DNA from: Armatimonadota bacterium
GTDB lineage: Bacteria; Armatimonadota; DTGP01; JAKQQT01
DNA: 64,000 nucleotides
NCBI GenBank assembly: GCA_036504855.1
Contig: DASXUL010000039.1
Span: forward strand, 15,582 to 79,581
Reading direction: 5' to 3'
A program made the position numbers and the translations under genes. How positions within the stretch are numbered: the first letter of the stretch is position 1; every line of letters starts with the position of its first letter. Positions 4,901 to 34,173 of this stretch are shown one piece after another. The notes under the pieces are model-generated. The model searched no databases. It was not told the DNA's origin and was given only the letters and a program-made list of their open reading frames with translations.

Positions 4901-5508
4901 CCTTCCCAGGCGCCGCGGCCGGCGCCTTCAACAGCGCGCCCGCGCTGTCTGGCGATAAGGTTGTGGTCGGCTCCGCCGCCCGCCGCGTCTACGGGTTCGC
5001 CTCCCTCACCGCCGTCCAGCCGTGGGTTACCAGCGTTACCCCGGCCAACGGCTCCGCCAGCGCCACGGCTCCGGCCAGCATCACCCTGACGTTCAGCGGC
5101 GACATCAGCACCTCTCCGATCGATTCCTCCACAGTGAAGTTGCTGGACAGCGCCGGCGCCGCGGTGGACGCGTCTCCGGCCCTTGGGGCTGACCTCAAGA
5201 GCATCGTCATCACGCCGGCGAGCCCGCTCTCGCTGAACAAGACCTATACCGTGGTGGTGGACGCCACCGTGTCGCAACCGTTCTCCTCTTCGTTCGCCAC
5301 GGCTCTGCCCGCGGTGGTGAAGGGCGACGTTAATGGCGACGGCCAGTTCAACGCCCAGGACGTGAAGGACGCCCTGAAGATGGCCAGCGGCCTTCTGCCC
5401 GCCACCGACAAGGCCATCACTGCTCTCAACAAGACCAAGCCGTACAGCATCACGGTTGGAGACGCCGTCTTCATGGACCGCGTGCTGGGCGGAAAGGCCT
5501 CCTTCTAG
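1966..5508 (+). CDS. Large secreted cell-surface protein (about 1180 aa) with a signal peptide, PQQ/BamB-like beta-propeller repeats, an Ig-like (Big/SbsA-type) domain and a C-terminal dockerin-like repeat
   Basis: I chose the ATG at 1966 inside the longer ORF because it is preceded by gaaagaggaa (an RBS) and starts the signal peptide MILPFRIPRWAAPAALGLALAAPSWA. Repeated GxxYxxxxxGxVYxxNxxTGxxL motifs indicate a beta-propeller. The C-terminus has DVNGDGQFNAQDVKDALKMASGLL. The 552-aa antisense ORF 2323..3981 was rejected. Confidence 0.8.
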   Translation: MILPFRIPRWAAPAALGLALAAPSWAAISVTDVSISPGTGGDIFLKYRLNEAASSVSINLSGGSSVTGATAKGLNTVTLTHAVAGQTATITATAPAEAGGAAGAVLVVPVTTPDNRATPSSTNLVGVDVNKRINSAGNVYGAALGHIYLPTGFNQAGQKYCWVYASDGTMLFNKNLGDVATSGSWPYGMAVAQGDPNDHVVIHNRSLAKNCVFNADLSLTFAAPYNYTNGVPGMCITPNPSDATLKFNIWQAGPKDKGVRRTKADLATAAGFDYNTTTFAIEAGNDGENVHDIAVDLTNAVMFKAQVTDGGVGALSTGGVNKWTSADAGDNWTEDTTWLTAFLNNVTADLAAAGSALTTADLVGGGVGLAPGFNAANMSNSSAWVAVSSSLAVPFFNRIYRVNAATAAIEQTIDVQQIPTPTGGVAIAGKSVRFVEADAVGNLCIGLNAAAAMTGQSSRYFAVLGPNQTGANSASVGGIFISAPPQISVSVDKNVVANTGAITVNFTAQVTDTSGIVADNAQVTADLSAIKGPPSATLVRGAVSADGFSAPYTVSYLVPKDVDLSNSGSFDLPFTLATTSTPSTVARVTVAVYSAYTPAWSLTTDGAVNSSPVTNGVYAYFGDDAGKVYEVNTATGALVSAFGAGGAVTLPEPVKGKLAYDAGKLYVATSGHVYVLNGGTGSILASPAVAGVSSLAVSPLIPNAVFAAAGNTIVKLNATTGAQLAATPDLGAAVNRVSLIPSSANDATQAPAVALVVTGTEGDSTGKNGKIVIASAGNLGAVFSDANSVPTLTPFTDANGPVRSQATFGNDGTINFFAIGGASGLWAVNADAGTLLEWVANSGGGANNGGNPYTPGSPVDADPVVPIVGDGSFGREDTRFAFATAGSASQGGQLNVLTSSVGERASYGGYPVPLTPIGSGFAAGAGLFAVNTADGPRVIYLGSDAVDKRFFAVETEPDDISYSATADKKHIFDPKDTLAFPGAAAGAFNSAPALSGDKVVVGSAARRVYGFASLTAVQPWVTSVTPANGSASATAPASITLTFSGDISTSPIDSSTVKLLDSAGAAVDASPALGADLKSIVITPASPLSLNKTYTVVVDATVSQPFSSSFATALPAVVKGDVNGDGQFNAQDVKDALKMASGLLPATDKAITALNKTKPYSITVGDAVFMDRVLGGKASF

Positions 5509-5513
5509 ACGAG

Positions 5514-5658
5514 TAGCTGTCAGCTATCAGCTATCAGCGATCAGCTATCAGCGATCAGCCGAACACCCCGCCCATGAGGAAACCATCCTCACGGGCGGGG
5601 TGTTCGGCTGAATGCTGAATGCTGAATGCTGAATGCTGAATGCTGATAGCTGACAGCT
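5514..5658. repeat. Intergenic palindromic element A. It has perfect 17-bp terminal inverted repeats, inner 7-bp tandem units (CAGCTAT/CAGCGAT on the left, GCTGAAT x4 on the right) and a central 15-bp-stem hairpin
   Basis: agctgtcagctatcagc (5514-5530) is the exact reverse complement of gctgatagctgacagct (5642-5658). The central stem ccgaacaccccgccc / gggcggggtgttcgg spans 5559-5607. The element lies between convergent genes, and the MFS stop codon (cta at 5657-5659) sits inside the right terminal repeat. Confidence 0.7.
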
Positions 5659-6868
5659 ATTCCCTCAGCGTTCCCAGGTTGCGGAGTTCGGGCCAGAGGC
5701 AGGCCACGGCGGCGACCACCAGGATGCTGCCCACGCCGCCCGCCACCACGGAGGCGACAGGGCCGAAGAGCTGGGCCACGGCGCCGCTCTCGAAGCCGCC
5801 GAGCTGGTTGCTGGCGCCGACGAAGAGGCTGTTTACCGCGCTCACCCGGCCGCGCAGATGGTCCGGCGTCCGTAACTGCACCAGTGACTGCCGCACGATG
5901 ACGCTGATGTTGTCCACGGCGCCCAGCAGGAAGAGCATCGACATCGAGAGCCAGAACGAACGCGAGAGGCCGAAAACCACGGTGACGACGCCAAACCCGG
6001 CCACGGCGAGGATCAGGGTGCGTCCTGCCCGGCGCATCGGAGGCCGGTGGGCCACCGAAACCGCCATCAGGGCCGCGCCCACGCTGGGGGCGGCCCGGAG
6101 CCAGCCCAACCCGCTGGGACCAACGTGCAGGATGTCTTTCGCGTAGATCGGCAGCAGGGTTGCGGCGCCCCCCAGCAGGACCGCGAACATATCCAGCGTT
6201 ATCGAGGCCAGAATGATGCGCGTCTGCAGAACGAAGCGCAAACCGGCCAGCAGCGTGCGCCAGTTCACTTCCTCGCGCTTTCGAGCGGCGGCCACGGTTC
6301 GAAGCGCCCACACGAAACCGAAGTGCCACAGCGCGAAGGCGGCGGCCACCCAGTAAACCGGCGCGGCCGCCTTCGCCACCCCGATGAGCAGCCCGCCGAG
6401 CGCCGGGCCCGCCACGCTGCCGATCTGGAAGATGCTGCTGTTCCAGGTGACGGCGTTGCTGAAATCGCGCTCCGGCACGAGTTGGGGCAGCAAGGAGGAC
6501 ACAGCCGGGTTACGGATGGCCCTCGACGTGGCGCCCACGAAGAGAAGGGCATAGTAGGCGGCCACAGGGCCGTGGGCGTGGGAGATCGCCGCCAGCGCCA
6601 GGGAGCAGAGCACGGCTATGGCCTGGGTGAACAGCACGATGCGACGGCGGTCGAACCGGTCCGCGGCATGTCCGGCCGGGAAGGTGAGAAGGAGGACCGG
6701 GAGGATTTCAACGAGTCCCACCAGGCCGAGGGCCATGGCGGAATGCGTTCGCTCGTAGAGCTCCCAACCCACGGCGACATCCTGCGCTTGCATCCCGATG
6801 ATGGAGAGGATATTGCCCGTGGCATAGCGCCGGAAATTCGCGTGGCGCAACGCTGAGTACGGGTCCAT
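5657..6868 (-). CDS. MFS transporter (enterobactin-exporter EntS-like family)
   Basis: A 403-aa polytopic membrane protein. The N-terminus LRHANFRRYATGNILSIIGMQAQDVAVGWELYERT and the overall pattern of 12 transmembrane segments are typical of the MFS superfamily. Confidence 0.85.
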   Translation of the reverse strand: MDPYSALRHANFRRYATGNILSIIGMQAQDVAVGWELYERTHSAMALGLVGLVEILPVLLLTFPAGHAADRFDRRRIVLFTQAIAVLCSLALAAISHAHGPVAAYYALLFVGATSRAIRNPAVSSLLPQLVPERDFSNAVTWNSSIFQIGSVAGPALGGLLIGVAKAAAPVYWVAAAFALWHFGFVWALRTVAAARKREEVNWRTLLAGLRFVLQTRIILASITLDMFAVLLGGAATLLPIYAKDILHVGPSGLGWLRAAPSVGAALMAVSVAHRPPMRRAGRTLILAVAGFGVVTVVFGLSRSFWLSMSMLFLLGAVDNISVIVRQSLVQLRTPDHLRGRVSAVNSLFVGASNQLGGFESGAVAQLFGPVASVVAGGVGSILVVAAVACLWPELRNLGTLRE

Positions 6869-6883
6869 AGGTGCAGTATGTCG

Positions 6884-7036
6884 TTATGAGTCATCAGTCG
6901 TCAGTCGTCAGTCGTCAGTCGTCAGTCCGGATGCCGTCTGCCGCCGAGAACGCCTCAATCACCGTTCTGGGCATTCGGGCTGATGACTGACGACTGACGA
7001 CTCATGACCGACGACTCATGACCGACGACTGATGGC
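6884..7036. repeat. Intergenic palindromic element B. It consists of a tandem GTCAGTC/GTCATCA 7-mer array, a unique core and an inverted CGACTGA/TGACGAC array
   Basis: gtcatcagtcgtcagtcgtcagtcgtcagtcgtcagtccgg ... gggctgatgactgacgactgacgactcatgaccgacgactcatgaccgacgactgatgg. The right arm extends over the last six codons and the TGA stop of the DUF309 gene (7016-7036). Confidence 0.7.
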
Positions 7037-7363
7037 TATCCCATCCGGCGGGAGGGCCTGCGGAGCCGTTGCCAGCCATGCGCGGATGGGCGGGAGGCAC
7101 AGGCCTTCGTCATCGGCGGGATCGGCGGATTCGAGGTGGGCGAGGGCTCGGGCCCAGAGGACGCGGGCGCCGTACAGGTTGCCGCGAGAGGCGTGGTAAC
7201 AGCCGACGGCGAGCTGTATCAGGCCCTGCATGGTGTGGCTGCGGGTGAGGCGCCAGCGCGGTTCGAGCGCGTCGTGGGCGGCATGATACTCGCCCGCCTG
7301 GAAGAGGTTGAGGAAGAGCGCCACGTCTGGTTCTACGCTTGCCTGGGTTATGTCTTTGGGCAT
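7016..7363 (-). CDS. DUF309-family small protein (115 aa)
   Basis: The C-terminal 115 aa of a 393-aa ORF. The segment starting MPKDITQ contains FLNLFQAGEYHAAHDALEPRW, which is the DUF309 signature (FNxGxYxEAHExLExxW). The start was chosen at the ATG at 7363, and the upstream part of the long ORF was rejected as non-coding. Confidence 0.5.
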   Translation of the reverse strand: MPKDITQASVEPDVALFLNLFQAGEYHAAHDALEPRWRLTRSHTMQGLIQLAVGCYHASRGNLYGARVLWARALAHLESADPADDEGLCLPPIRAWLATAPQALPPDGIAISRRS

Positions 7364-7444
7364 GGTCTGTATTATAATCCGAGTGGCAGGCTCCGTTTCG
7401 GAGCGTGCGAATTTCCCTTTGAGAACCATTGGAGGAAGACAACA

Positions 7445-8035
7445 ATGCGATGGACCCTCGGAGTCGCCGCTCTGGCCACCGTCACCATGTGTTCGGGCTC
7501 GATGGCCCGGGCCGCCGACAGCCTGACCGGCCAGCAGATCGTGATCAAGGGCGGCGTCACGCGCCCCACGGACGGGGATGTTAAGGCCGTCGGCAACGAC
7601 TGGTTCACCTACGGCGCCGAGTATCAGTTCGGCGACCCGGACGCCAAGGCCGTGAACGGCATCGAACTCCTCTACACCAAGAAGAGCGACACGGTGACCA
7701 ACGTGGGCACATTGGGCATCCCGACGGATTACTCGATGTTCTCGCTGATGCTGAACCACAAGATCCGTCGTCCGGATCCGGATGGCACAACGGCCGGAAA
7801 AGTCTTCTTCTACGGCGCCGGAGTGGGCGTGGACTTCATCCGCGTGAAGATGGACGATCCCAACCCGGGCGGCCAGACGATTGATGACAAGTCCACTGTG
7901 CTGGGCGGCAACCTGTTCGCGGGCTACGAGTTTTCCTCCAACGTCCAGTTGGAGTTGAAGTACCAGATCCCCTTCAAGAAGGTGAACGACACCAAGTTCG
8001 ACGGCCTCCAGCTTCTGGCCGGCATTAAGTTCTAG
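7445..8035 (+). CDS. Secreted outer-membrane beta-barrel-like protein (196 aa) with a C-terminal Phe
   Basis: An internal ATG at 7445 is preceded by GGAGG (7428-7432) and begins the signal peptide MRWTLGVAALATVTMCSGSMARA. The protein has alternating amphipathic beta-strands and the terminal ...LLAGIKF typical of outer-membrane beta-barrel proteins. The N-terminal 103 aa of the 299-aa ORF were rejected. Confidence 0.6.
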   Translation: MRWTLGVAALATVTMCSGSMARAADSLTGQQIVIKGGVTRPTDGDVKAVGNDWFTYGAEYQFGDPDAKAVNGIELLYTKKSDTVTNVGTLGIPTDYSMFSLMLNHKIRRPDPDGTTAGKVFFYGAGVGVDFIRVKMDDPNPGGQTIDDKSTVLGGNLFAGYEFSSNVQLELKYQIPFKKVNDTKFDGLQLLAGIKF

Positions 8036-10786: not shown

Positions 10787-11044
10787 ATGTTACGCATGAA
10801 CGCGGGCACGCGCCCATGCGGGGAGGGTTATCCGATGAAGCCCGCATTGTACGGCTGGAAGGACATGCTGCATGACTACACGCAGCTCCTTCTGAACGAC
10901 CGCTGGTATTGGTGCCGCCACTGCCGTCGTCCCGTTGAACACGTGCAGATCCCGCCTCCGGGCAGCCCCCCGGACGCGACCTCCCTAACGTGCCTCGATT
11001 GCGGCTACGCCGACCCGGAATTCCTGCACCTCCCTCGGATGTAA
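10787..11044 (+). CDS. Small zinc-ribbon protein (CxxC...CxxC), hypothetical
   Basis: An 85-aa ORF containing CRHCRRP ... CLDCGY. A start at the internal MKPALYGW is also possible. Confidence 0.4.
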   Translation: MLRMNAGTRPCGEGYPMKPALYGWKDMLHDYTQLLLNDRWYWCRHCRRPVEHVQIPPPGSPPDATSLTCLDCGYADPEFLHLPRM

Positions 11045-11163
11045 GCTGTCAGCCGTCAGCTGTCAGCCGTCAGCCCAGAGGGTCCGCCTGTGCAGACGCC
11101 GCGCTCTCTTGGGTCAGCCTTCCGGCTGATGACTGATGACTGAAGGCTGACGACTGACTACTG
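11045..11163. repeat. Intergenic palindromic element C, a compound of 7-mer arrays (GCTGTCA/GCCGTCA) plus a D/E-like unit
   Basis: gctgtcagccgtcagctgtcagccgtcagcc ... ggtcagccttccggctgatgactgatgactgaaggctgacgactgactac, located immediately after the stop codon of the preceding gene. Confidence 0.65.
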
Positions 11164-11237
11164 CCTCAGTGCTCTGTTCGGGTGGTTCTGTGAGTTGGTC
11201 GCGTCCGTAGGAAGCACCTTCTGTGTGTGAAAGGCTG

Positions 11238-27880: not shown

Positions 27881-29008
27881 TCATAATCCTAGGATTTCGC
27901 GCCCCAACAGCGCCCAGCGGGTGATATCCGGGTCCGCGTTGAAGCCGGGTTCACCGGCGAGAACGGCGCGCTGGTGGGCGGCCAGAACGCATGCGCCTTC
28001 CTCGAAGATCCCGCGGATCGGATCGGGCAGCGGCTCGCGGCCGATGCAGGCTGGGCGCAGCGGGATCATCTCCCGCGTGTTGTGCTCGGTTCCGCCAGTT
28101 ACGATGAAGCCCGCATCTCGCAAGGCGGGAACGTACTCCTCCAGCACGAGGCGGCGGTTGCGCACTGGGATGAACTCCACGGCCCCGATATCCCAACGAT
28201 GGAGCCGCTCAGTCAACCCTTCAACCGGCGCCTCGAACGGGCAGATGGGGCTGGCGCCGTCCGCCAGCACCGGGTAGCACGGGATGCCCCTCATCGCCAG
28301 GACCAGCGCGCGGGCCTCCTCGAAGGAGACGAACCGTTCCTCCACGAAGGCCGGCCGCCCGGCCTTCATCAGATGCGTGCGGATGTCGTTTTGCACCGCC
28401 GCCGCGTCGTCTGGCGCCTTCGGCTCTGCTCCAAGAATCGCGTGCAGCGCTCCGGCCCGGGCGCCAGGCTCGGTAGAGGCGAACAGCGCTTCCTGAAACG
28501 CCTGCGCCACGTGGCGCTCCTGAAGGGTAACCGTATCGCGCGGGCAGCCGTGCCGGGTCACGACGCCGTCAACAATTGCCCCGTCGGTCAGGCCGGTGGG
28601 GAATCCCGCCGTCGTGAACACGGACTCCATGCGCGACACCATCGCGGAGATGCGGCGCGCGTCGCCCTCGCGGATGCCATTCAGCACGCGCGCCGGCTCC
28701 GGCTCGAAAGCGGCGGCGGGGGCGATTCCCTTCCCGCAGACGTAGACCTTGCCGGGGTTGCCGGGGTCGTTCAGCTTCACGCCATCGGCCGCCAGCCGCT
28801 CATCCCGCGCCACGATCTCCATCCCGAACAGCGGGAAGATGCCGGCGCGTTCGGCCCGTTCTGCAAATTCCGCGTAAACGGAGTAATCGTAGTAGTTGCT
28901 GGCCCCGAGCGCGCGGATGCCCTGTTCGGCCGCCAGGCGTACCGCCTGTTCCACGGAATCGAACGCCGAAAAGTTCGGCGGAAGGTGAATGTGGCTGTTT
29001 GAAGTCAT
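27881..29008 (-). CDS. PHP-domain (polymerase/histidinol-phosphatase-like) metal-dependent phosphoesterase
   Basis: The N-terminus SHIHLPPNFSAFDS matches the HxH...D PHP motif. The start codon lies inside the first unit of repeat D and has no Shine-Dalgarno sequence. Confidence 0.6.
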   Translation of the reverse strand: MTSNSHIHLPPNFSAFDSVEQAVRLAAEQGIRALGASNYYDYSVYAEFAERAERAGIFPLFGMEIVARDERLAADGVKLNDPGNPGKVYVCGKGIAPAAAFEPEPARVLNGIREGDARRISAMVSRMESVFTTAGFPTGLTDGAIVDGVVTRHGCPRDTVTLQERHVAQAFQEALFASTEPGARAGALHAILGAEPKAPDDAAAVQNDIRTHLMKAGRPAFVEERFVSFEEARALVLAMRGIPCYPVLADGASPICPFEAPVEGLTERLHRWDIGAVEFIPVRNRRLVLEEYVPALRDAGFIVTGGTEHNTREMIPLRPACIGREPLPDPIRGIFEEGACVLAAHQRAVLAGEPGFNADPDITRWALLGREILGL

Positions 29009-29073
29009 CAGTAATCAGTCGTCAGTCGTCAGTTGTCAGTTCGGACTCAGAACTGATGACTGACGACTGACAA
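29004..29073. repeat. Intra-operon palindromic element D of the 7-mer family (GTCATCA/GTCGTCA ... TGACGAC/TGATGAC)
   Basis: gtcatcagtaatcagtcgtcagtcgtcagttgtcagttcggactcagaactgatgactgacgactgacaac fills the entire 65-bp gap between the E2 stop and the PHP start. Confidence 0.65.
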
Positions 29074-30276
29074 CTACTTCTCCAGCATTTCCTTGAGTCG
29101 GGCCATGAAGCGGGCGGCGAGGAGGCCGTCGATGAGGCGGTGGTCGGCGGAGAGGGTGAGCGTCATCCGATGGCCGGCGCGGATGGCGCCGTCCTTCACG
29201 ACGATGTCCTCGCGAACGGCGCCCACGGCCAGGATGGCGGCTTCCGGCGGGTTGATGATCGCCGAGAACTCCTCAACGCCGAACATGCCGAGGTTGGTGA
29301 TGGTGAACGTGGCCTCGCCGGCGCCCTCCAGCCTGCCGGCGCGGGCGGCCTCCACAATGCGGCGCGTTTCGGCGGCGATGCCCTTCAGGTTTCGGCTGTC
29401 CGCGCCCCTCAGAACCGGCACGGTGAGCCCCTCATCCGTTCCCACGGCGATGCCGATATTCGCCTCGCGGAACGTGACGACGTCATCGCCGTCCACGCGG
29501 CCCCGGAACGCGGGGAACTCGGTAAGGAGGCGGGCACAGGCGTATGTGATGACGTCGTTCAGGCTGCACGGATACACCGCCTTCTCGGCGCGGTAGAACG
29601 CCATCAGCGGCCCCGCGTCGACGGTGAGCTTCACGTAGAAGTGCGGGATGGTCTGCTTGGACGCAACGAGGCCGCGGGCGATGGCCTTCCGCATACGGGT
29701 CATGGGAACGCGCTCGGCCCCCGGCTCCGGCGGTCGCGGGGATCGCGGCTCCGGCTCCGGCTCCGCCGCGGCCTCGTGGACCGCTGCTTCAACATCGGCC
29801 AGCAAGATCCGGCCGCGCGGGCCCGAGCCATGGGCGATGCTCTCCAGGGAAACGCCGCACTGGGCCGCGGCCTTCCGGGCCAGCGGCGAGGCGGCCACGC
29901 GCCCGGACCGCGCGGGTTCCACGGCCGGAGTCCGTTCCCGCGCCGGCGCCTCTCCGGCTACGTTCGGCGCAACGGCCTGCGGCGCTCCGGCGAGGAACGC
30001 GTCCGCCTCGGCGTCCGTCTCGGCCAGAACGCCAACCAGCGATTTCACCGGCAGCGTGACGCCGTCCTTCGCCACGATGCGGGCGAGGCGTCCGGAATCG
30101 GCCGCTTCCACCTCCAGCACGGCCTTGTCCGTTTCCACCTCGAAGAGGATGTCGCCCTTGCGGACCTGGTCCCCCTCGCGGGCCAGCCATCGGACGATGG
30201 TCCCCTCCTCCATGGATTGCCCCGGCTGGGGCATCAGTATCGCCACGGCGCCGCGCGTCTCGGACGGTTGGTTCAT
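29074..30276 (-). CDS. Dihydrolipoamide acyltransferase (E2 component of a 2-oxo acid dehydrogenase complex)
   Basis: A lipoyl domain (EVETDKAVLEVEA), an Ala/Pro-rich linker, an E3-binding domain, and a catalytic domain with DHRLIDG. The start was chosen at MNQPS (30276). The upstream ATG at 30333 would place a palindromic operator-like site in the coding sequence. Confidence 0.8.
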   Translation of the reverse strand: MNQPSETRGAVAILMPQPGQSMEEGTIVRWLAREGDQVRKGDILFEVETDKAVLEVEAADSGRLARIVAKDGVTLPVKSLVGVLAETDAEADAFLAGAPQAVAPNVAGEAPARERTPAVEPARSGRVAASPLARKAAAQCGVSLESIAHGSGPRGRILLADVEAAVHEAAAEPEPEPRSPRPPEPGAERVPMTRMRKAIARGLVASKQTIPHFYVKLTVDAGPLMAFYRAEKAVYPCSLNDVITYACARLLTEFPAFRGRVDGDDVVTFREANIGIAVGTDEGLTVPVLRGADSRNLKGIAAETRRIVEAARAGRLEGAGEATFTITNLGMFGVEEFSAIINPPEAAILAVGAVREDIVVKDGAIRAGHRMTLTLSADHRLIDGLLAARFMARLKEMLEK

Positions 30277-30308
30277 AACGGAAGCCTTTACAAGTTGGTC
30301 GAAGTTTT

Positions 30309-30341
30309 GCACATTATAGACAAACTCTTGCAAGAATGTGC
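30309..30341. promoter_or_regulatory. Candidate operator: a perfect 10-bp palindrome TCTTGCAAGA nested in a 7-bp inverted repeat GCACATT...AATGTGC, in the divergent E2/DeoR control region
   Basis: gcacattatagacaaactcttgcaagaatgtgc. It lies about 30 to 65 nt upstream of the E2 start and about 80 nt upstream of the DeoR-family regulator start. Confidence 0.35.
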
Positions 30342-30347
30342 AGAGAA

Positions 30348-30418
30348 GTCATCAGTTGTCAGTCATCAGTTCTCAGTCCGGACTGACGACTGATGACTGA
30401 TGACTGATGACTGACGAC
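30348..30418. repeat. Palindromic element E of the 7-mer family, centred on cagtccggactg
   Basis: gtcatcagttgtcagtcatcagttctcagtcc | ggactgacgactgatgactgatgactgatgactgacgac. It ends 4 nt before the DeoR ATG. Confidence 0.7.
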
Positions 30419-30422
30419 TCCC

Positions 30423-31208
30423 ATGAGCCTGACCTCCGAACAACGACAGGAAGAGATACTTACGCGCGTGCTGGGTGTGGGGCACGTTGTGGTGAAGGCG
30501 TTGGCCGTGGACATGGGGGTTTCGGAGGCGACGGTGCGGCGCGACCTGCGGGCGCTGGCCGACGCGCGCAAGGTGGAACTGGTGTACGGCGGCGCCACGA
30601 TGCCGCGAACCGCGGACTTCACCGTGCTGGGGCGCGCGCGGCGCAATGTGGAGGCCAAGCGCATTGTGGGACGGCTGGCCGCCGGCCTGGTTCCCGACGG
30701 CGAGATGATGTACGTGGATTCCGGGACCACATGCTTCGAGATGCGCCGCCACCTGATGCAGAAGCGCGGCCTCTCCATCTTGCTGAACTCCACCCGCCTC
30801 GCCATGGAACTGAACGCCGGATCGGACGCCAGCATCGTGCTCCTCGGCGGGCACTACCGGCCTGAGCGCATGGATACCGTGGGCCCGCTGGCGGTGGCGG
30901 CCATCGACCAACTGCGCGGCTACGTGGCCTTCATCGGCGCCGACGGGCTCGACCCGGATTTCGGGGTGACCGCCGACGATATCCAGACCGCGTTCCTCTA
31001 TCAGCACGTGTTAAGGAACGCGCGCGAGACCATTCTGCTGGCGGACCATACCAAATTCCTCTGCCCATCGCTGTATCGCATCTGCACGTGGGACGCCATC
31101 TCCCGCGTGGTCACCGATGTGCGCCCCGACGACGAGTGGGTGGAGTTTCTCAACAAGAACGGCATCGAGCTGATACACGAGATGAACACGGAAGCGCCCG
31201 GCTGCTAG
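30423..31208 (+). CDS. DeoR/GlpR-family transcriptional regulator
   Basis: An N-terminal HTH ([34 protein letters not shown]) and a C-terminal DeoR sugar-phosphate-binding domain. Confidence 0.85.
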
Positions 31209-33724: not shown

Positions 33725-34173
33725 AGAGGGATCGGGGCCGGCGGAGCGAATCGGGGTCCGGATTCCGGATTCCGGATTCGCGACCATGAGCGGGTGGAGG
33801 ATGTTGGTTGGGAGGAAAGGCCGGGCCCCGAGGGGCCGGCTCGGCGGACCAACGGCGCCTTCGCGCTGTGATGCCGCCGTCCACTCACGTCACCCCGAGC
33901 GAAGCGAGAGGTCTCGGCCTGACGCGTCTTTCCTGGCAACGTTTCAAGCACCCGAGCCGGCGTTTGCCTGGGTGCTTGCTCCGCAGCGCCAAACTGCAGG
34001 CCAGGCCGAGACCTCTCGCTTCGCTCGAGGTGACGTGGAGAGACGCGAGGGCGCGAAGGGCCCTTGGCCTTCCGAGCCGGCCCCTCGGGGCCAGGCTCTA
34101 CCCGCCAACTACTAGCATCCTCGCGCATCCGGTCGCGAATCCGGACTCCGGAATCCGGATCCCGATCCCCTTC
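33725..34173. repeat. Three-layer nested palindromic composite (about 449 bp) that fills the gap between convergent genes
   Basis: Outer inverted repeat: gggatcggg...tccggattccggattccggattcgcgacc (33728-33787) against ggtcgcgaatccggactccggaatccggatcccgatcccc (34126-34170). Middle inverted repeat: gccccgaggggccggctcgg (33828-33847) against ccgagccggcccctcggggc (34072-34091). Inner 153-bp element: 33886-34038. Confidence 0.7.
33886..34038. mobile_element. MITE-like 153-bp palindromic element (copy 1) with 36-bp terminal inverted repeats and a central hairpin
   Basis: Terminal repeats cacgtcaccccgagcgaagcgagaggtctcggcctg / caggccgagacctctcgcttcgctcgaggtgacgtgg. The central stem is agcacccgagcc...tgggtgct. 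It is homologous to 44973..45125. Confidence 0.6.

What the first reader, a model, noticed from the sequence alone, without database searches (positions are those of the whole stretch)
6884..7036. Repeat copy B supplies the last codons and the stop codon of the neighbouring DUF309 gene; copy A contains the MFS gene stop
The right arm of element B (…CTCATGACCGACGACTGATGG) extends 21 nt into the 3' end of the DUF309 ORF. The residues ...IASRRS and the TGA stop are therefore encoded by repeat units. Similarly, the TAG stop of the MFS gene (cta at 5657-5659) lies inside the perfect 17-bp terminal repeat of element A. This suggests that insertion or expansion of these elements has remodelled gene 3' ends. 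The same kind of 3'-end remodelling has been described for neisserial Correia elements and enterobacterial REPs.
Basis: seen in the sequence. Interest (0 to 1): 0.5.

Follow-up and report, generated by a model that had tools for sequence, protein, structure and literature searches.

The report
Heptamer-repeat hairpins overrunning gene ends
Hairpin-forming arrays of a 7-base repeat fill the gaps between genes in this uncultured Armatimonadota genome, and in places they have grown over the ends of neighbouring genes and supply their stop (and once their start) codons; this is a local example of a repeat class already described in other bacteria.

Summary
The DUF309 gene (7016-7363, minus strand) takes its last five codons and its TGA from the right arm of element B. 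All three bases of the MFS stop codon (5657-5659) lie inside an 18-bp perfect terminal inverted repeat of element A.

A and B are not copies of one mobile element. They are two of five inverted pairs of tandem heptamer arrays in the window. Each reads 5'-(TCAGYNN)n, a unique core, then (NNRCTGA)n-3'. None shares a core, a terminal consensus or a target duplication.

The closest described relatives are the paired convergent GGGAATC heptamer repeats of Xanthomonas and the TAACTGA repeats of Beggiatoaceae. Correia elements and REPs are not close.

"Remodelled 3' ends" is partly supported.
- **DUF309:** repeat-free syntenic orthologues have 46-67-nt spacers and a conserved PP-containing tail. The window protein departs from that tail at the array edge.
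- **MFS:** no conserved residue is lost, and repeat-free orthologues end at the same residue.
it ends in hairpin D and lacks the C-terminal helix kept by 119 of 119 homologues. The next gene's ATG lies in the same hairpin.

Verdict: a new member of a known repeat class, of moderate interest.

The parts
5514..5559 (.). Element A, left arm: (TCAGCTA/TCAGCGA)n heptamer array. It begins with the 18-bp terminal inverted repeat TAGCTGTCAGCTATCAGC.
   Evidence: TRF period 7, 6.4 copies; sequence; pattern hits.
5560..5606 (.). Element A, unique GC-rich core hairpin (cgaacaccccgcccatgagg ... cctcacgggcggggtgttcg).
   Evidence: Fold of -114 to -116 kcal/mol for the whole element, z -16 to -18. No similarity to the other cores.
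5607..5659 (.). Element A, right arm: five perfect GCTGAAT units, then GCTGATAGCTGACAGCTA. The last three bases, cta, are the MFS stop codon.
   Evidence: TRF 5.7 copies at 100%.
5657..6868 (-). MFS_3 transporter gene, 403 aa. The stop is embedded in the terminal inverted repeat of A. The start lies 16 nt from B.
   Evidence: Pfam PF05977, 8e-39. Tail comparison with 80 orthologues. N-terminus comparison.
6884..6927 (.). Element B, left arm: (TCAGTCG)n.
   Evidence: TRF 5.6 copies at 96%.
6928..6979 (.). Element B, unique core with a weak internal stem.
6980..7036 (.). Element B, right arm: eight units (CTGATGA, CTGACGA, and the 14-mer CTCATGACCGACGA twice, plus a further partial copy). Positions 7016-7036 encode (A)ISRRS and the TGA of the DUF309 gene.
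   Evidence: TRF period 14, 3.1 copies at 93%; translation.
7016..7363 (-). DUF309 gene. The last five codons and the stop lie in array B.
   Evidence: Pfam PF03745, 1.7e-17. JGI gene call P0001 has the same stop. Tail alignments.
11044..11165 (.). Element C: (GTCAGCY)n, a unique core, then (GRCTGAY)n. It begins at the last base of the TAA stop (11042-11044) of an 85-aa ORF.
29001..29079 (.). Element D: a hairpin that fills the whole E2-to-PHP spacer. It contains the E2 stop (cta, 29074-29076) and the PHP-like gene's start (cat, 29006-29008).
29074..30276 (-). E2 acyltransferase gene, ending ...RLKEMLEK*. It lacks the last 4-6 residues (PxxL[LA]), which form the trimer-trimer helix.
   Evidence: Every solved E2 listed extends at least 4 residues past the point where the window protein ends, most by 6-10. 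119 of 119 homologues are longer. Syntenic relative L089.
27881..29008 (-). PHP-like gene. Its only start that keeps the HIH motif is the ATG inside array D. Its N-terminus is 11 aa shorter than in the syntenic relative.
30347..30422 (.). Element E: a hairpin with almost no core. It ends directly before the ATG of the DeoR-type regulator gene at 30423.

Best explanation
**What the elements are.** A and B are two of at least five inverted pairs of tandem heptanucleotide arrays in the window. These are long simple-sequence repeats, not transposons. Each reads 5'-(TCAGYNN)n, an optional unique core, then (NNRCTGA)n-3', on either strand. Each folds into a 35-70-bp hairpin.

**How they grow (inferred).** They grow in place by replication slippage within an arm. 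The palindrome probably extends outward by template switching between arms. They come to occupy essentially all sequence between the conserved cores of neighbouring genes.

**How they reach coding sequence (partly shown, partly inferred).** Where an array reaches a dispensable protein terminus it replaces that terminus. Diverged outer units then supply the stop codon (TCATGAG, AGTAGTT, TAGCTGT) or the start codon (CTGATGA).
- In B this produced the ISRRS* tail of DUF309.
- In A only the MFS stop triplet is shared.
- In D the E2 protein lost its C-terminal helix, and the downstream gene starts inside the hairpin.

**What they do (inferred).** B and D leave no room for a promoter before the downstream gene. 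They must therefore be transcribed as intercistronic RNA hairpins and cannot be efficient terminators. Their likely effects resemble those of REPs in operons:
- protection or processing of the upstream mRNA 3' end;
- interference with ribosomes terminating at a stop placed at the foot of the stem;
- in D, bringing stop and start together at the stem base.
For: **Shown**
- Period-7 structure, inverted pairing and folding.
- Cores are unrelated between elements, and the arms use different unit variants (A: CAGCKAT against GCTGAAT; B: CAGTCGT).
- In-arm slippage. A's right arm has five perfect GCTGAAT copies that mismatch the left arm at 1-2 positions per unit. B's right arm carries a 14-mer duplication that makes it two units longer than the left arm.
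- Syntenic relatives lack arrays and have short spacers: 46 and 67 nt against 147 nt for B, and 16 nt against 65 nt for D.
- Protein homology to relatives stops at or within a few residues of the array edge for DUF309, E2 (unique among 120) and the PHP-like N-terminus.
- The MFS is at the minimal extreme at both ends.
- The same architecture and polarity occur elsewhere. At least 120 metagenome contigs carry (TCAGTCG)n; the 80 retrieved as loci span GC 0.44-0.69 across the contigs with paired arrays. TCAG-then-CTGA pairs number 15 there plus 5 in the window, against 0 in the opposite order.
- In those contigs the flanking ORF stops mostly lie close to the array edge, many within about 11 nt. 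They are often fused to the first unit (gtagTCAG, gtaaTCAG, ttgaaTCAG). In L146 the stop lies 14 nt inside the array, in CAGTAGT variant units.
- Unrelated heptamer arrays carry the stop of the two shortest MFS orthologues, L055 and L018.

**Prior art for the class**
- Xanthomonas GGGAATC repeats: 70-75 convergent pairs per genome, mostly within 50 bp of stop codons, 7-11% overlapping ORFs, and not conserved between species (PMC4692102).
- TAACTGA repeats: stops in all three frames, with 13 sets overlapping upstream stop codons (PMC4679880).
Against: - No close relative exists in the databases searched. The nearest DUF309 is 63% identical and the nearest E2 is 66% identical. No intermediate or polymorphic allele shows the array growing, so the direction of change is inferred.
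- The DUF309 tail region is poorly conserved and also carries an internal deletion of about 11 aa that is unrelated to the array.
- The MFS case is fully explained without any remodelling.
- Slippage adds sequence but does not delete flanks. The replacement of ancestral spacer and termini needs a further step (template switching or deletion) for which there is no direct evidence.
- The strict polarity (20:0) is not predicted by neutral slippage and hints at a sequence-specific process or at selection.
- No expression data exist, so every RNA-level function is inference.
- Repeat copy numbers come from a metagenome assembly. L081 is the same contig, not independent confirmation.
Confidence: 0.6

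Rival explanations
1. A and B are copies of a miniature mobile element (MITE, Correia-like or REP/REPIN-like). It inserted into or next to gene 3' ends and brought ready-made stop codons.
For: - Terminal inverted repeats (18 bp perfect in A) and intergenic location.
- Presence in this lineage but not in syntenic relatives.
- The same unit type and strict polarity in many unrelated metagenome contigs. This could reflect horizontal spread or a dedicated enzyme.
Against: - The five elements share no core or terminal consensus beyond the heptamer itself. One search finds no repeat joining A and B.
- Lengths range from 76 to 153 nt, and D and E have almost no core.
- No target-site duplication is visible at any end.
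- The arms of one element differ by arm-specific tandem duplications, which points to local slippage.
- Ancestral spacer and termini are replaced rather than interrupted.
- No transposase was looked for in the window, so that point is open.
Confidence: 0.12
2. No remodelling took place. The gene ends are ancestral or drifted independently. The arrays simply expanded through neutral intergenic DNA until they met existing stop and start codons. The overlap reflects the TGA, TAG and ATG content of the units.
For: - The MFS ends at the same residue as five repeat-free orthologues, and its tail is variable everywhere (0-41 aa).
- In L058 and L059 the arrays begin just after an unshortened tail.
- DUF309 tails are weakly conserved.
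Against: - Five DUF309 codons are array units by sequence (93% 14-mer periodicity). They replace a PP-containing tail present in all six closest stand-alone homologues.
- The E2 tail is conserved in 119 of 119 homologues and in all solved structures, and is missing only here, at the hairpin.
- Two termini of the MFS and one of the PHP-like gene are at the short extreme exactly where arrays abut.
- The unit sequence is shared with four other loci and at least 120 metagenome contigs, so it was not seeded by the DUF309 tail.
Confidence: 0.15
3. The hairpins are selected functional signals placed at stop codons. They could be U-tract-independent bidirectional terminators or translation-attenuating structures. 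The stop overlap would then be a design feature rather than a by-product.
For: - Very stable stems.
- A lies between convergent genes.
- Stops lie close to the stem foot (many within about 11 nt) across the metagenome family.
- From my own recollection, not checked here: E. coli REPs within about 15 nt of a stop codon reduce expression by stalling ribosomes (Liang, Rudd and Deutscher 2015).
Against: - No T or U tract follows any stem, and the terminator scan finds none at the elements.
- B and D sit between co-directional genes with 16 nt or 0 nt left for a promoter. E lies in a divergent promoter or 5'-UTR region.
- The elements are absent at the same loci in relatives.
- Unit sequence and copy number differ between elements.
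Confidence: 0.25

Closest known systems
Paired convergent GGGAATC heptameric repeats of Xanthomonas, and GGGGAYT of Nostoc (Rehm et al. 2015, PMC4692102)
   Same: - Tandem 7-nt units, mostly intergenic.
- 70-75 cases per genome of two arrays on opposite strands, always in convergent orientation, able to form stem-loops.
- Preferentially within 50 bp of stop codons, with 7-11% partly overlapping ORFs.
- Not conserved at the same genes between related species.
   Different: - The unit here is TCAGYNN/NNRCTGA. It has no G-tracts, so G-quadruplex formation is not expected.
- The host is an Armatimonadota MAG.
- Here the arrays demonstrably carry sense codons, a start codon, and the stop of a truncated conserved enzyme.
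TAACTGA direct repeats of marine Beggiatoaceae, cyanobacteria and Bacteroidetes (MacGregor 2015, PMC4679880)
   Same: - The unit shares the ACTGA core (CGACTGA or TGACTGA against TAACTGA).
- The forward orientation gives stops in all three frames, and the reverse is open.
- Arrays end within a few nt of start codons, as E and D do here.
- 13 sets overlap the stop codon of the upstream ORF.
   Different: - Those are direct arrays, with a single inverted case out of 170.
- Here every array is one arm of an inverted pair.
- The unit differs at 1-2 of 7 positions.
- A role in translational regulation was proposed there but not shown.
Cyanobacterial STRR heptamers (reported for Calothrix PCC 7601; cited in PMC4692102; further details from my own knowledge)
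   Same: Tandem heptanucleotide arrays that are intergenic, lineage-specific and of variable copy number.
   Different: Different unit sequences and a different phylum. The paired hairpin arrangement is not their defining feature.
REP/BIME and neisserial Correia elements
   Same: Intergenic, hairpin-forming and transcribed within operons. From my own knowledge, they can lie at or over stop codons and alter gene ends or expression.
   Different: Those are families of near-identical copies with a conserved palindrome or terminal inverted repeat. REPs have a GTAG head and an associated RAYT transposase. Correia elements have 26-bp inverted repeats and a TA duplication. None of these features is present here.

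Membership tests
Heptameric long simple-sequence repeats in convergent pairs (Xanthomonas-type / STRR-like) | Head-to-tail tandem units of 7 nt, at least 3 copies | tested here: met
   TRF period-7 arrays at all ten arms. 27 pattern hits against 0.01 expected.
Heptameric long simple-sequence repeats in convergent pairs (Xanthomonas-type / STRR-like) | Two arrays close together on opposite strands in one fixed orientation, able to form a stem-loop | tested here: met
   Inverted repeats at 79-93% complementarity. Fold z of -6.8 to -18 for four elements and -2.8 for C. Polarity 5 of 5 in the window and 15:0 in metagenome loci.
Heptameric long simple-sequence repeats in convergent pairs (Xanthomonas-type / STRR-like) | Intergenic, concentrated within about 50 bp of ORF ends, occasionally overlapping them | tested here: met
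   All five elements abut or overlap stop or start codons. The metagenome elements show the same.
Heptameric long simple-sequence repeats in convergent pairs (Xanthomonas-type / STRR-like) | Not conserved at orthologous loci of related genomes | tested here: met
   Syntenic loci L082-85, L087 and L089-92 have no such arrays.
Heptameric long simple-sequence repeats in convergent pairs (Xanthomonas-type / STRR-like) | Copy-number polymorphism between strains (slippage) | not testable with these tools
   Only one contig carries this locus. L081 is identical and comes from the same assembly. In-arm perfect copies and the 14-mer duplication are indirect signs only.
TAACTGA repeat family (MacGregor 2015) | Unit sequence TAACTGA in direct repeats | tested here: not met
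   The units are CGACTGA, TGACTGA and ATGCTGA, matching at 5-6 of 7 positions. They are always in inverted pairs.
Correia element / MITE | Conserved terminal inverted repeats and internal sequence shared by all copies, plus a target-site duplication | tested here: not met
   No repeat family links A and B. The cores of A, B and C are unrelated, and D and E have almost none. No duplicated flanks.
REP / BIME / REPIN | A 20-40-nt imperfect palindrome of conserved sequence with a GTAG-type head, in many near-identical copies | tested here: not met
   The elements share only the heptamer period and the TCAG core. Their outer ends differ: gTAGCTG, tATGAGTC, TAAGCTG, tGAAGTC, gAGAAGTC.
REP / BIME / REPIN | Associated RAYT (Y1) transposase in the genome | not tested
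   The window's ORFs were not screened for transposases, and the rest of the genome is not available.
Intrinsic (Rho-independent) terminator | GC-rich stem followed by a T/U tract | tested here: not met
   The consensus scan of 5300-7500 finds no terminator at A or B. No T-run follows any of the five stems.

The most novel reading that the evidence does not exclude
TCAG-heptamer hairpins are not passive microsatellites. They would be a widespread family, present in at least 120 metagenome contigs, propagated with strict polarity. They would extend by templated palindrome growth and systematically erode and re-terminate the ends of neighbouring genes. Here that includes removing the trimer-trimer helix of an E2 core enzyme. 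Where stop and start sit at the two feet of one stem, as in D, they would work as termination-reinitiation coupling devices.
Probability: 0.12. Interest if true: 0.65.

Novelty: new member of a known kind. Interest (0 to 1): 0.36.

Why it matters
- **Scale of the effect.** Simple-sequence arrays, without any transposase, can replace whole intergenic spacers. They can also rewrite the last or first codons of flanking genes, up to the edge of what selection tolerates.
- **Annotation.** Short, odd C-termini next to heptamer arrays (ISRRS*, ...LEK*) are repeat-derived. They should not be read as family features.
- **A testable consequence.** The E2 truncation predicts a 2-oxoacid dehydrogenase core that cannot form the usual 24- or 60-subunit assembly.
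- **An open question.** The 20:0 polarity of the pairs needs a mechanistic or selective explanation.

Tried and rejected
- **Rfam:** gathering-threshold scan of the whole window, no family. **tRNA/tmRNA scan:** none.
- **Promoter and terminator consensus scan of 5300-7500:** nothing at A or B.
- **Closer relatives to polarise the change:** the DUF309 search of 5.8 billion proteins gave only the identical protein, then hits at 63% identity or lower. The full HMMER search of 1.84 billion representatives gave nothing closer than 59%. L081 turned out to be the same contig.
- **DUF309 next to MFS in 80 genome loci:** no DUF309 hits. Synteny was recovered only through metagenome contigs.
- **Literature search for the unit sequences** (CGACTGA, TCAGTCG and others): only unrelated primer or barcode hits.
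- **The paper on REPs near stop codons:** not found in the library, so it is cited from memory only.
- **Loose period-7 CTGA hits after the MFS gene in L023 and L028:** chance, not arrays.
- **Ideas considered and rejected:**
  - Sequencing-adaptor or 454-key artefact. The arrays sit inside long contigs from many projects, as inverted pairs between genes.
  - The array seeded from the native DUF309 tail. The same units occur at four other loci and in at least 120 contigs.

Full report
**1. The observation**

On the minus strand the DUF309 gene (Pfam PF03745, E = 1.7e-17) ends ...CCG GAT GGG ATA GCC ATC AGT CGT CGG TCA TGA. This translates as ...PDGIAISRRS*. The right arm of element B consists of eight 7-nt units from 6980 to 7035. 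TRF scores 6992-7034 as 3.1 copies of a 14-mer at 93% match. The last five sense codons and the TGA (7016-7018) are therefore repeat units. The TGA lies in a diverged unit (CTCATGA); canonical units are open in this reading direction. JGI's independent gene call ends at the same stop.

Element A has an 18-bp perfect terminal inverted repeat (5514-5531 against 5642-5659). Its last three bases are the MFS stop codon, cta at 5657-5659. No MFS sense codon is repeat-derived.

The periodic pattern TCAGNNNTCAGNNNTCAG occurs 27 times in the window against 0.01 expected.

**2. What the elements are**

A and B are not two copies of one element. One search finds no repeat joining them, and their cores are unrelated. 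They are two of five elements of one architecture in the window:

| Element | Coordinates |
|---|---|
| A | 5514-5659 |
| B | 6884-7036 |
| C | 11044-11165 |
| D | 29001-29079 |
| E | 30347-30422 |

- Each is a 5' arm of (TCAGYNN)n, an optional unique core (47-52 nt in A, B and C; almost none in D and E), and a 3' arm of (NNRCTGA)n.
- Four of the five fold into long hairpins on both strands, with z between -6.8 and -18 against shuffles. Element C is weaker (z -2.8).
- The polarity is the same in all five. Plus-strand pattern hits are always in the left arm and minus-strand hits always in the right arm.
- The 3' arm carries TGA in all three frames. The 5' arm is open in all three.
- Arm-specific tandem duplications show local slippage. 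A's right arm has five perfect GCTGAAT copies that mismatch the left arm at 1-2 positions per unit. B's right arm has a 14-mer duplication that makes it two units longer than the left arm.
- No Rfam family matches. No canonical terminator is found at A or B.

**3. Gene context**

The elements fill intergenic spacers edge to edge.

- **A** lies between convergent genes. The upstream stop is 5 nt from the array, and the MFS stop is inside it.
- **B** lies between the co-directional DUF309 and MFS genes. It overlaps DUF309 by 21 nt and ends 16 nt before the MFS ATG.
- **C** starts at the last base of a TAA stop.
- **D** lies between the co-directional E2 acyltransferase and a PHP-like gene. It contains both the E2 stop and the PHP-like ATG.
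- **E** ends directly before the ATG of a DeoR-type regulator.

B and D leave no room for a promoter. They must be transcribed within operon-like units and cannot be efficient terminators.

**4. Comparative tests of "remodelled ends"**

*DUF309.* Metagenome contigs encoding homologues P0004 (52% identity) and P0003 (60%) keep the same gene order: OMP beta-barrel, then DUF309, then MFS. They have 46-nt and 67-nt spacers and no period-7 arrays, against 147 nt in the window. The six closest stand-alone homologues share a tail of the form LPxGRRLxGxxPxA[IL]xPPx[IL].... The window protein follows it to PDGI(A) and then reads ISRRS*. Homology is thus lost at the array boundary. The homologues are distant, and the tail also carries an unrelated internal deletion, so the direction of change is inferred.

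*MFS.* Eighty orthologues share the motif WPE[LI]RxLGxLxE, which ends at the window protein's last residue. Their tails beyond it run 0-41 aa. Eight end at or before the same position. Five of those end at exactly the same residue and have no array there.

Three further points bear on the MFS:
- It is at the short extreme at both ends, and both abut arrays. Only 3 of 78 orthologues have no N-terminal extension even under the most conservative start choice; the median is 8 aa.
- The two shortest orthologues (L055 and L018, Gemmatimonadaceae) take their last codon and TGA from the first unit of an unrelated heptamer array, GGTTGTGAGCT....
- In L058 and L059 the arrays begin just after an unshortened tail.

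*E2 acyltransferase (not in the finding).* The gene ends ...DHRLIDGLLAARFMARLKEMLEK*, with AAG TAG inside the outer stem of D.
- All 119 homologues with the DHR motif carry at least 27 residues after it (...LLE[DENS]PxxL[LAV]). The window protein has 23.
- Every solved E2 listed extends at least 4 residues beyond the point where the window protein ends, most by 6-10.
- A syntenic relative (L089: E2 66% identical, PHP-like 56%) reads ...LLEDPARLR*, a 16-nt spacer, then MTHTDATGIPPWPVNTHIHLPPNF.
- The window reads ...MLEK*, hairpin D, then MTSNSHIHLPPNF.
- D therefore occupies everything between the conserved cores of the two genes and supplies both the stop and the start.

**5. The wider family**

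Eighty of them were retrieved as loci. The contigs with paired arrays span GC 0.44-0.69.

- Adjacent TCAG-then-CTGA array pairs number 15 in the 80 loci. The opposite order never occurs. With the window the count is 20:0.
- The search was strand-symmetric, so the polarity is real.
- Flanking ORF stops mostly lie close to the array edges, many within about 11 nt. They are often fused to the first unit (gtagTCAG, gtaaTCAG, ttgaaTCAG, ttagttgTCAG).
- In L146 the stop lies 14 nt inside the array, in CAGTAGT variant units.
- A stop codon at or in the outermost unit is thus a property of the family, not a peculiarity of A and B.
- Other heptamers form similar inverted pairs in Planctomycetota, Cyanobacteria, Gemmatimonadota and Armatimonadota loci.

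**6. Comparison with what is known**

- **Closest description: Rehm et al. 2015 (PMC4692102).** Xanthomonas GGGAATC repeats include 70-75 pairs per genome, always in convergent orientation and capable of stem-loops. They lie preferentially within 50 bp of stop codons, 7-11% partly overlap ORFs, and they are not conserved between related species.
- **MacGregor 2015 (PMC4679880).** TAACTGA repeats share the ACTGA core. They give stops in three frames in the forward orientation. Thirteen sets overlap upstream stop codons, and most end just before start codons.
- **Correia, MITE and REP.** Membership fails on every defining feature tested: a shared core, a shared terminal inverted repeat and a target duplication.

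The case is therefore a new member, with a new unit and a new phylum, of a known class of paired heptameric simple-sequence repeats. I found no paper naming these units, but the library is incomplete.

**7. Mechanism, and how sure**

*Shown:*
- the repeat nature of the DUF309 tail and stop;
- the hairpin architecture and its polarity;
- the absence of arrays at syntenic loci in relatives;
- the unique truncation of E2;
- the start codon inside D.

*Inferred:*
- The arrays grew in place and overwrote dispensable termini, with diverged outer units fixed as new stops and starts (confidence about 0.6).
- Replacing rather than inserting sequence needs something beyond slippage. Template switching between the arms of a quasi-palindrome is my proposal; it is untested.
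- RNA-level roles (3'-end protection, interference with termination at the stem foot, stop-start coupling in D) are hypotheses.
- The 20:0 polarity is unexplained. One possibility is that the 3' arm acts as a three-frame stop barrier ahead of downstream starts.

**8. Verdict**

The Correia/REP filing is rejected. Novelty: a new member of a known kind. Interest: moderate.

Noticed in passing
window 29074-30276 (-) and element D 29001-29079: The E2 acyltransferase ends ...KEMLEK* inside hairpin D. It lacks the C-terminal 3_10 helix (PxxL[LA]) that is present in 119 of 119 homologues and in all solved E2 structures. That helix mediates trimer-trimer "knobs and sockets" contacts, so this E2 may be unable to build a 24- or 60-subunit core.
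   Followed up: partly
window 27881-29008 (-): The PHP-like gene's only start that keeps the HIH motif is the ATG inside array unit CTGATGAC of D. Its N-terminus (MTS + NSHIHLPPNF) is 11 aa shorter than in the syntenic relative L089. The stop of the upstream gene and this start sit at the two feet of one stem.
   Followed up: partly
window 33745-34171: An imperfect palindrome of about 430 nt lies between convergent genes. Its outer ends are inverted heptamer arrays of a different unit: (TCCGGAT)3.3 at 33757-33779 and (GAATCCG)3.3 at 34137-34159. Its inner 36-nt arms are 97% complementary and contain GTCACCCCGAGCGAAGCGAGAGGTCTC.
   Followed up: partly
window elements A-E; loci L094-L168: The polarity of TCAG-heptamer pairs is strict. 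The TCAG-type arm is always 5' and the CTGA-type arm always 3', on either strand: 20 pairs against 0 in the opposite order. No explanation has been established.
   Followed up: partly
L055 4160-4281 and L018 7195-7235: In two Gemmatimonadaceae genomes the MFS orthologue is the shortest of all 80. It takes its last codon and TGA from the first unit of an unrelated heptamer array (GGTTGTGAGCT...). In L055 that array has an inverted partner, (GCTCACA)n.
   Followed up: partly
window ~30295-30325 (minus strand) and L089 2448-2462: A -10-like TTTGTCTATAATG upstream of the E2 gene is conserved between the window and the syntenic relative. In the window, element E replaces the rest of the DeoR-E2 divergent region. 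In the relative that region holds a different inverted repeat, cttgcgtgagtttccgcatggaaacgcaag.
   Followed up: no
window 6866-6868 (MFS start): The MFS N-terminus is M followed directly by the conserved DPYSALRH. Only 3 of 78 orthologues have no N-terminal extension, and the median is 8 aa. The syntenic relatives L087 and L082 have about 8-10 extra residues.
   Followed up: partly
window, whole: Source identification. The E2 protein is identical to an NCBI protein from a "MAG TPA: Armatimonadota bacterium" on an 89.5-kb contig. The DUF309-MFS stretch is identical to JGI contig Ga0376481_001035 from sample 3300035523.
   Followed up: yes
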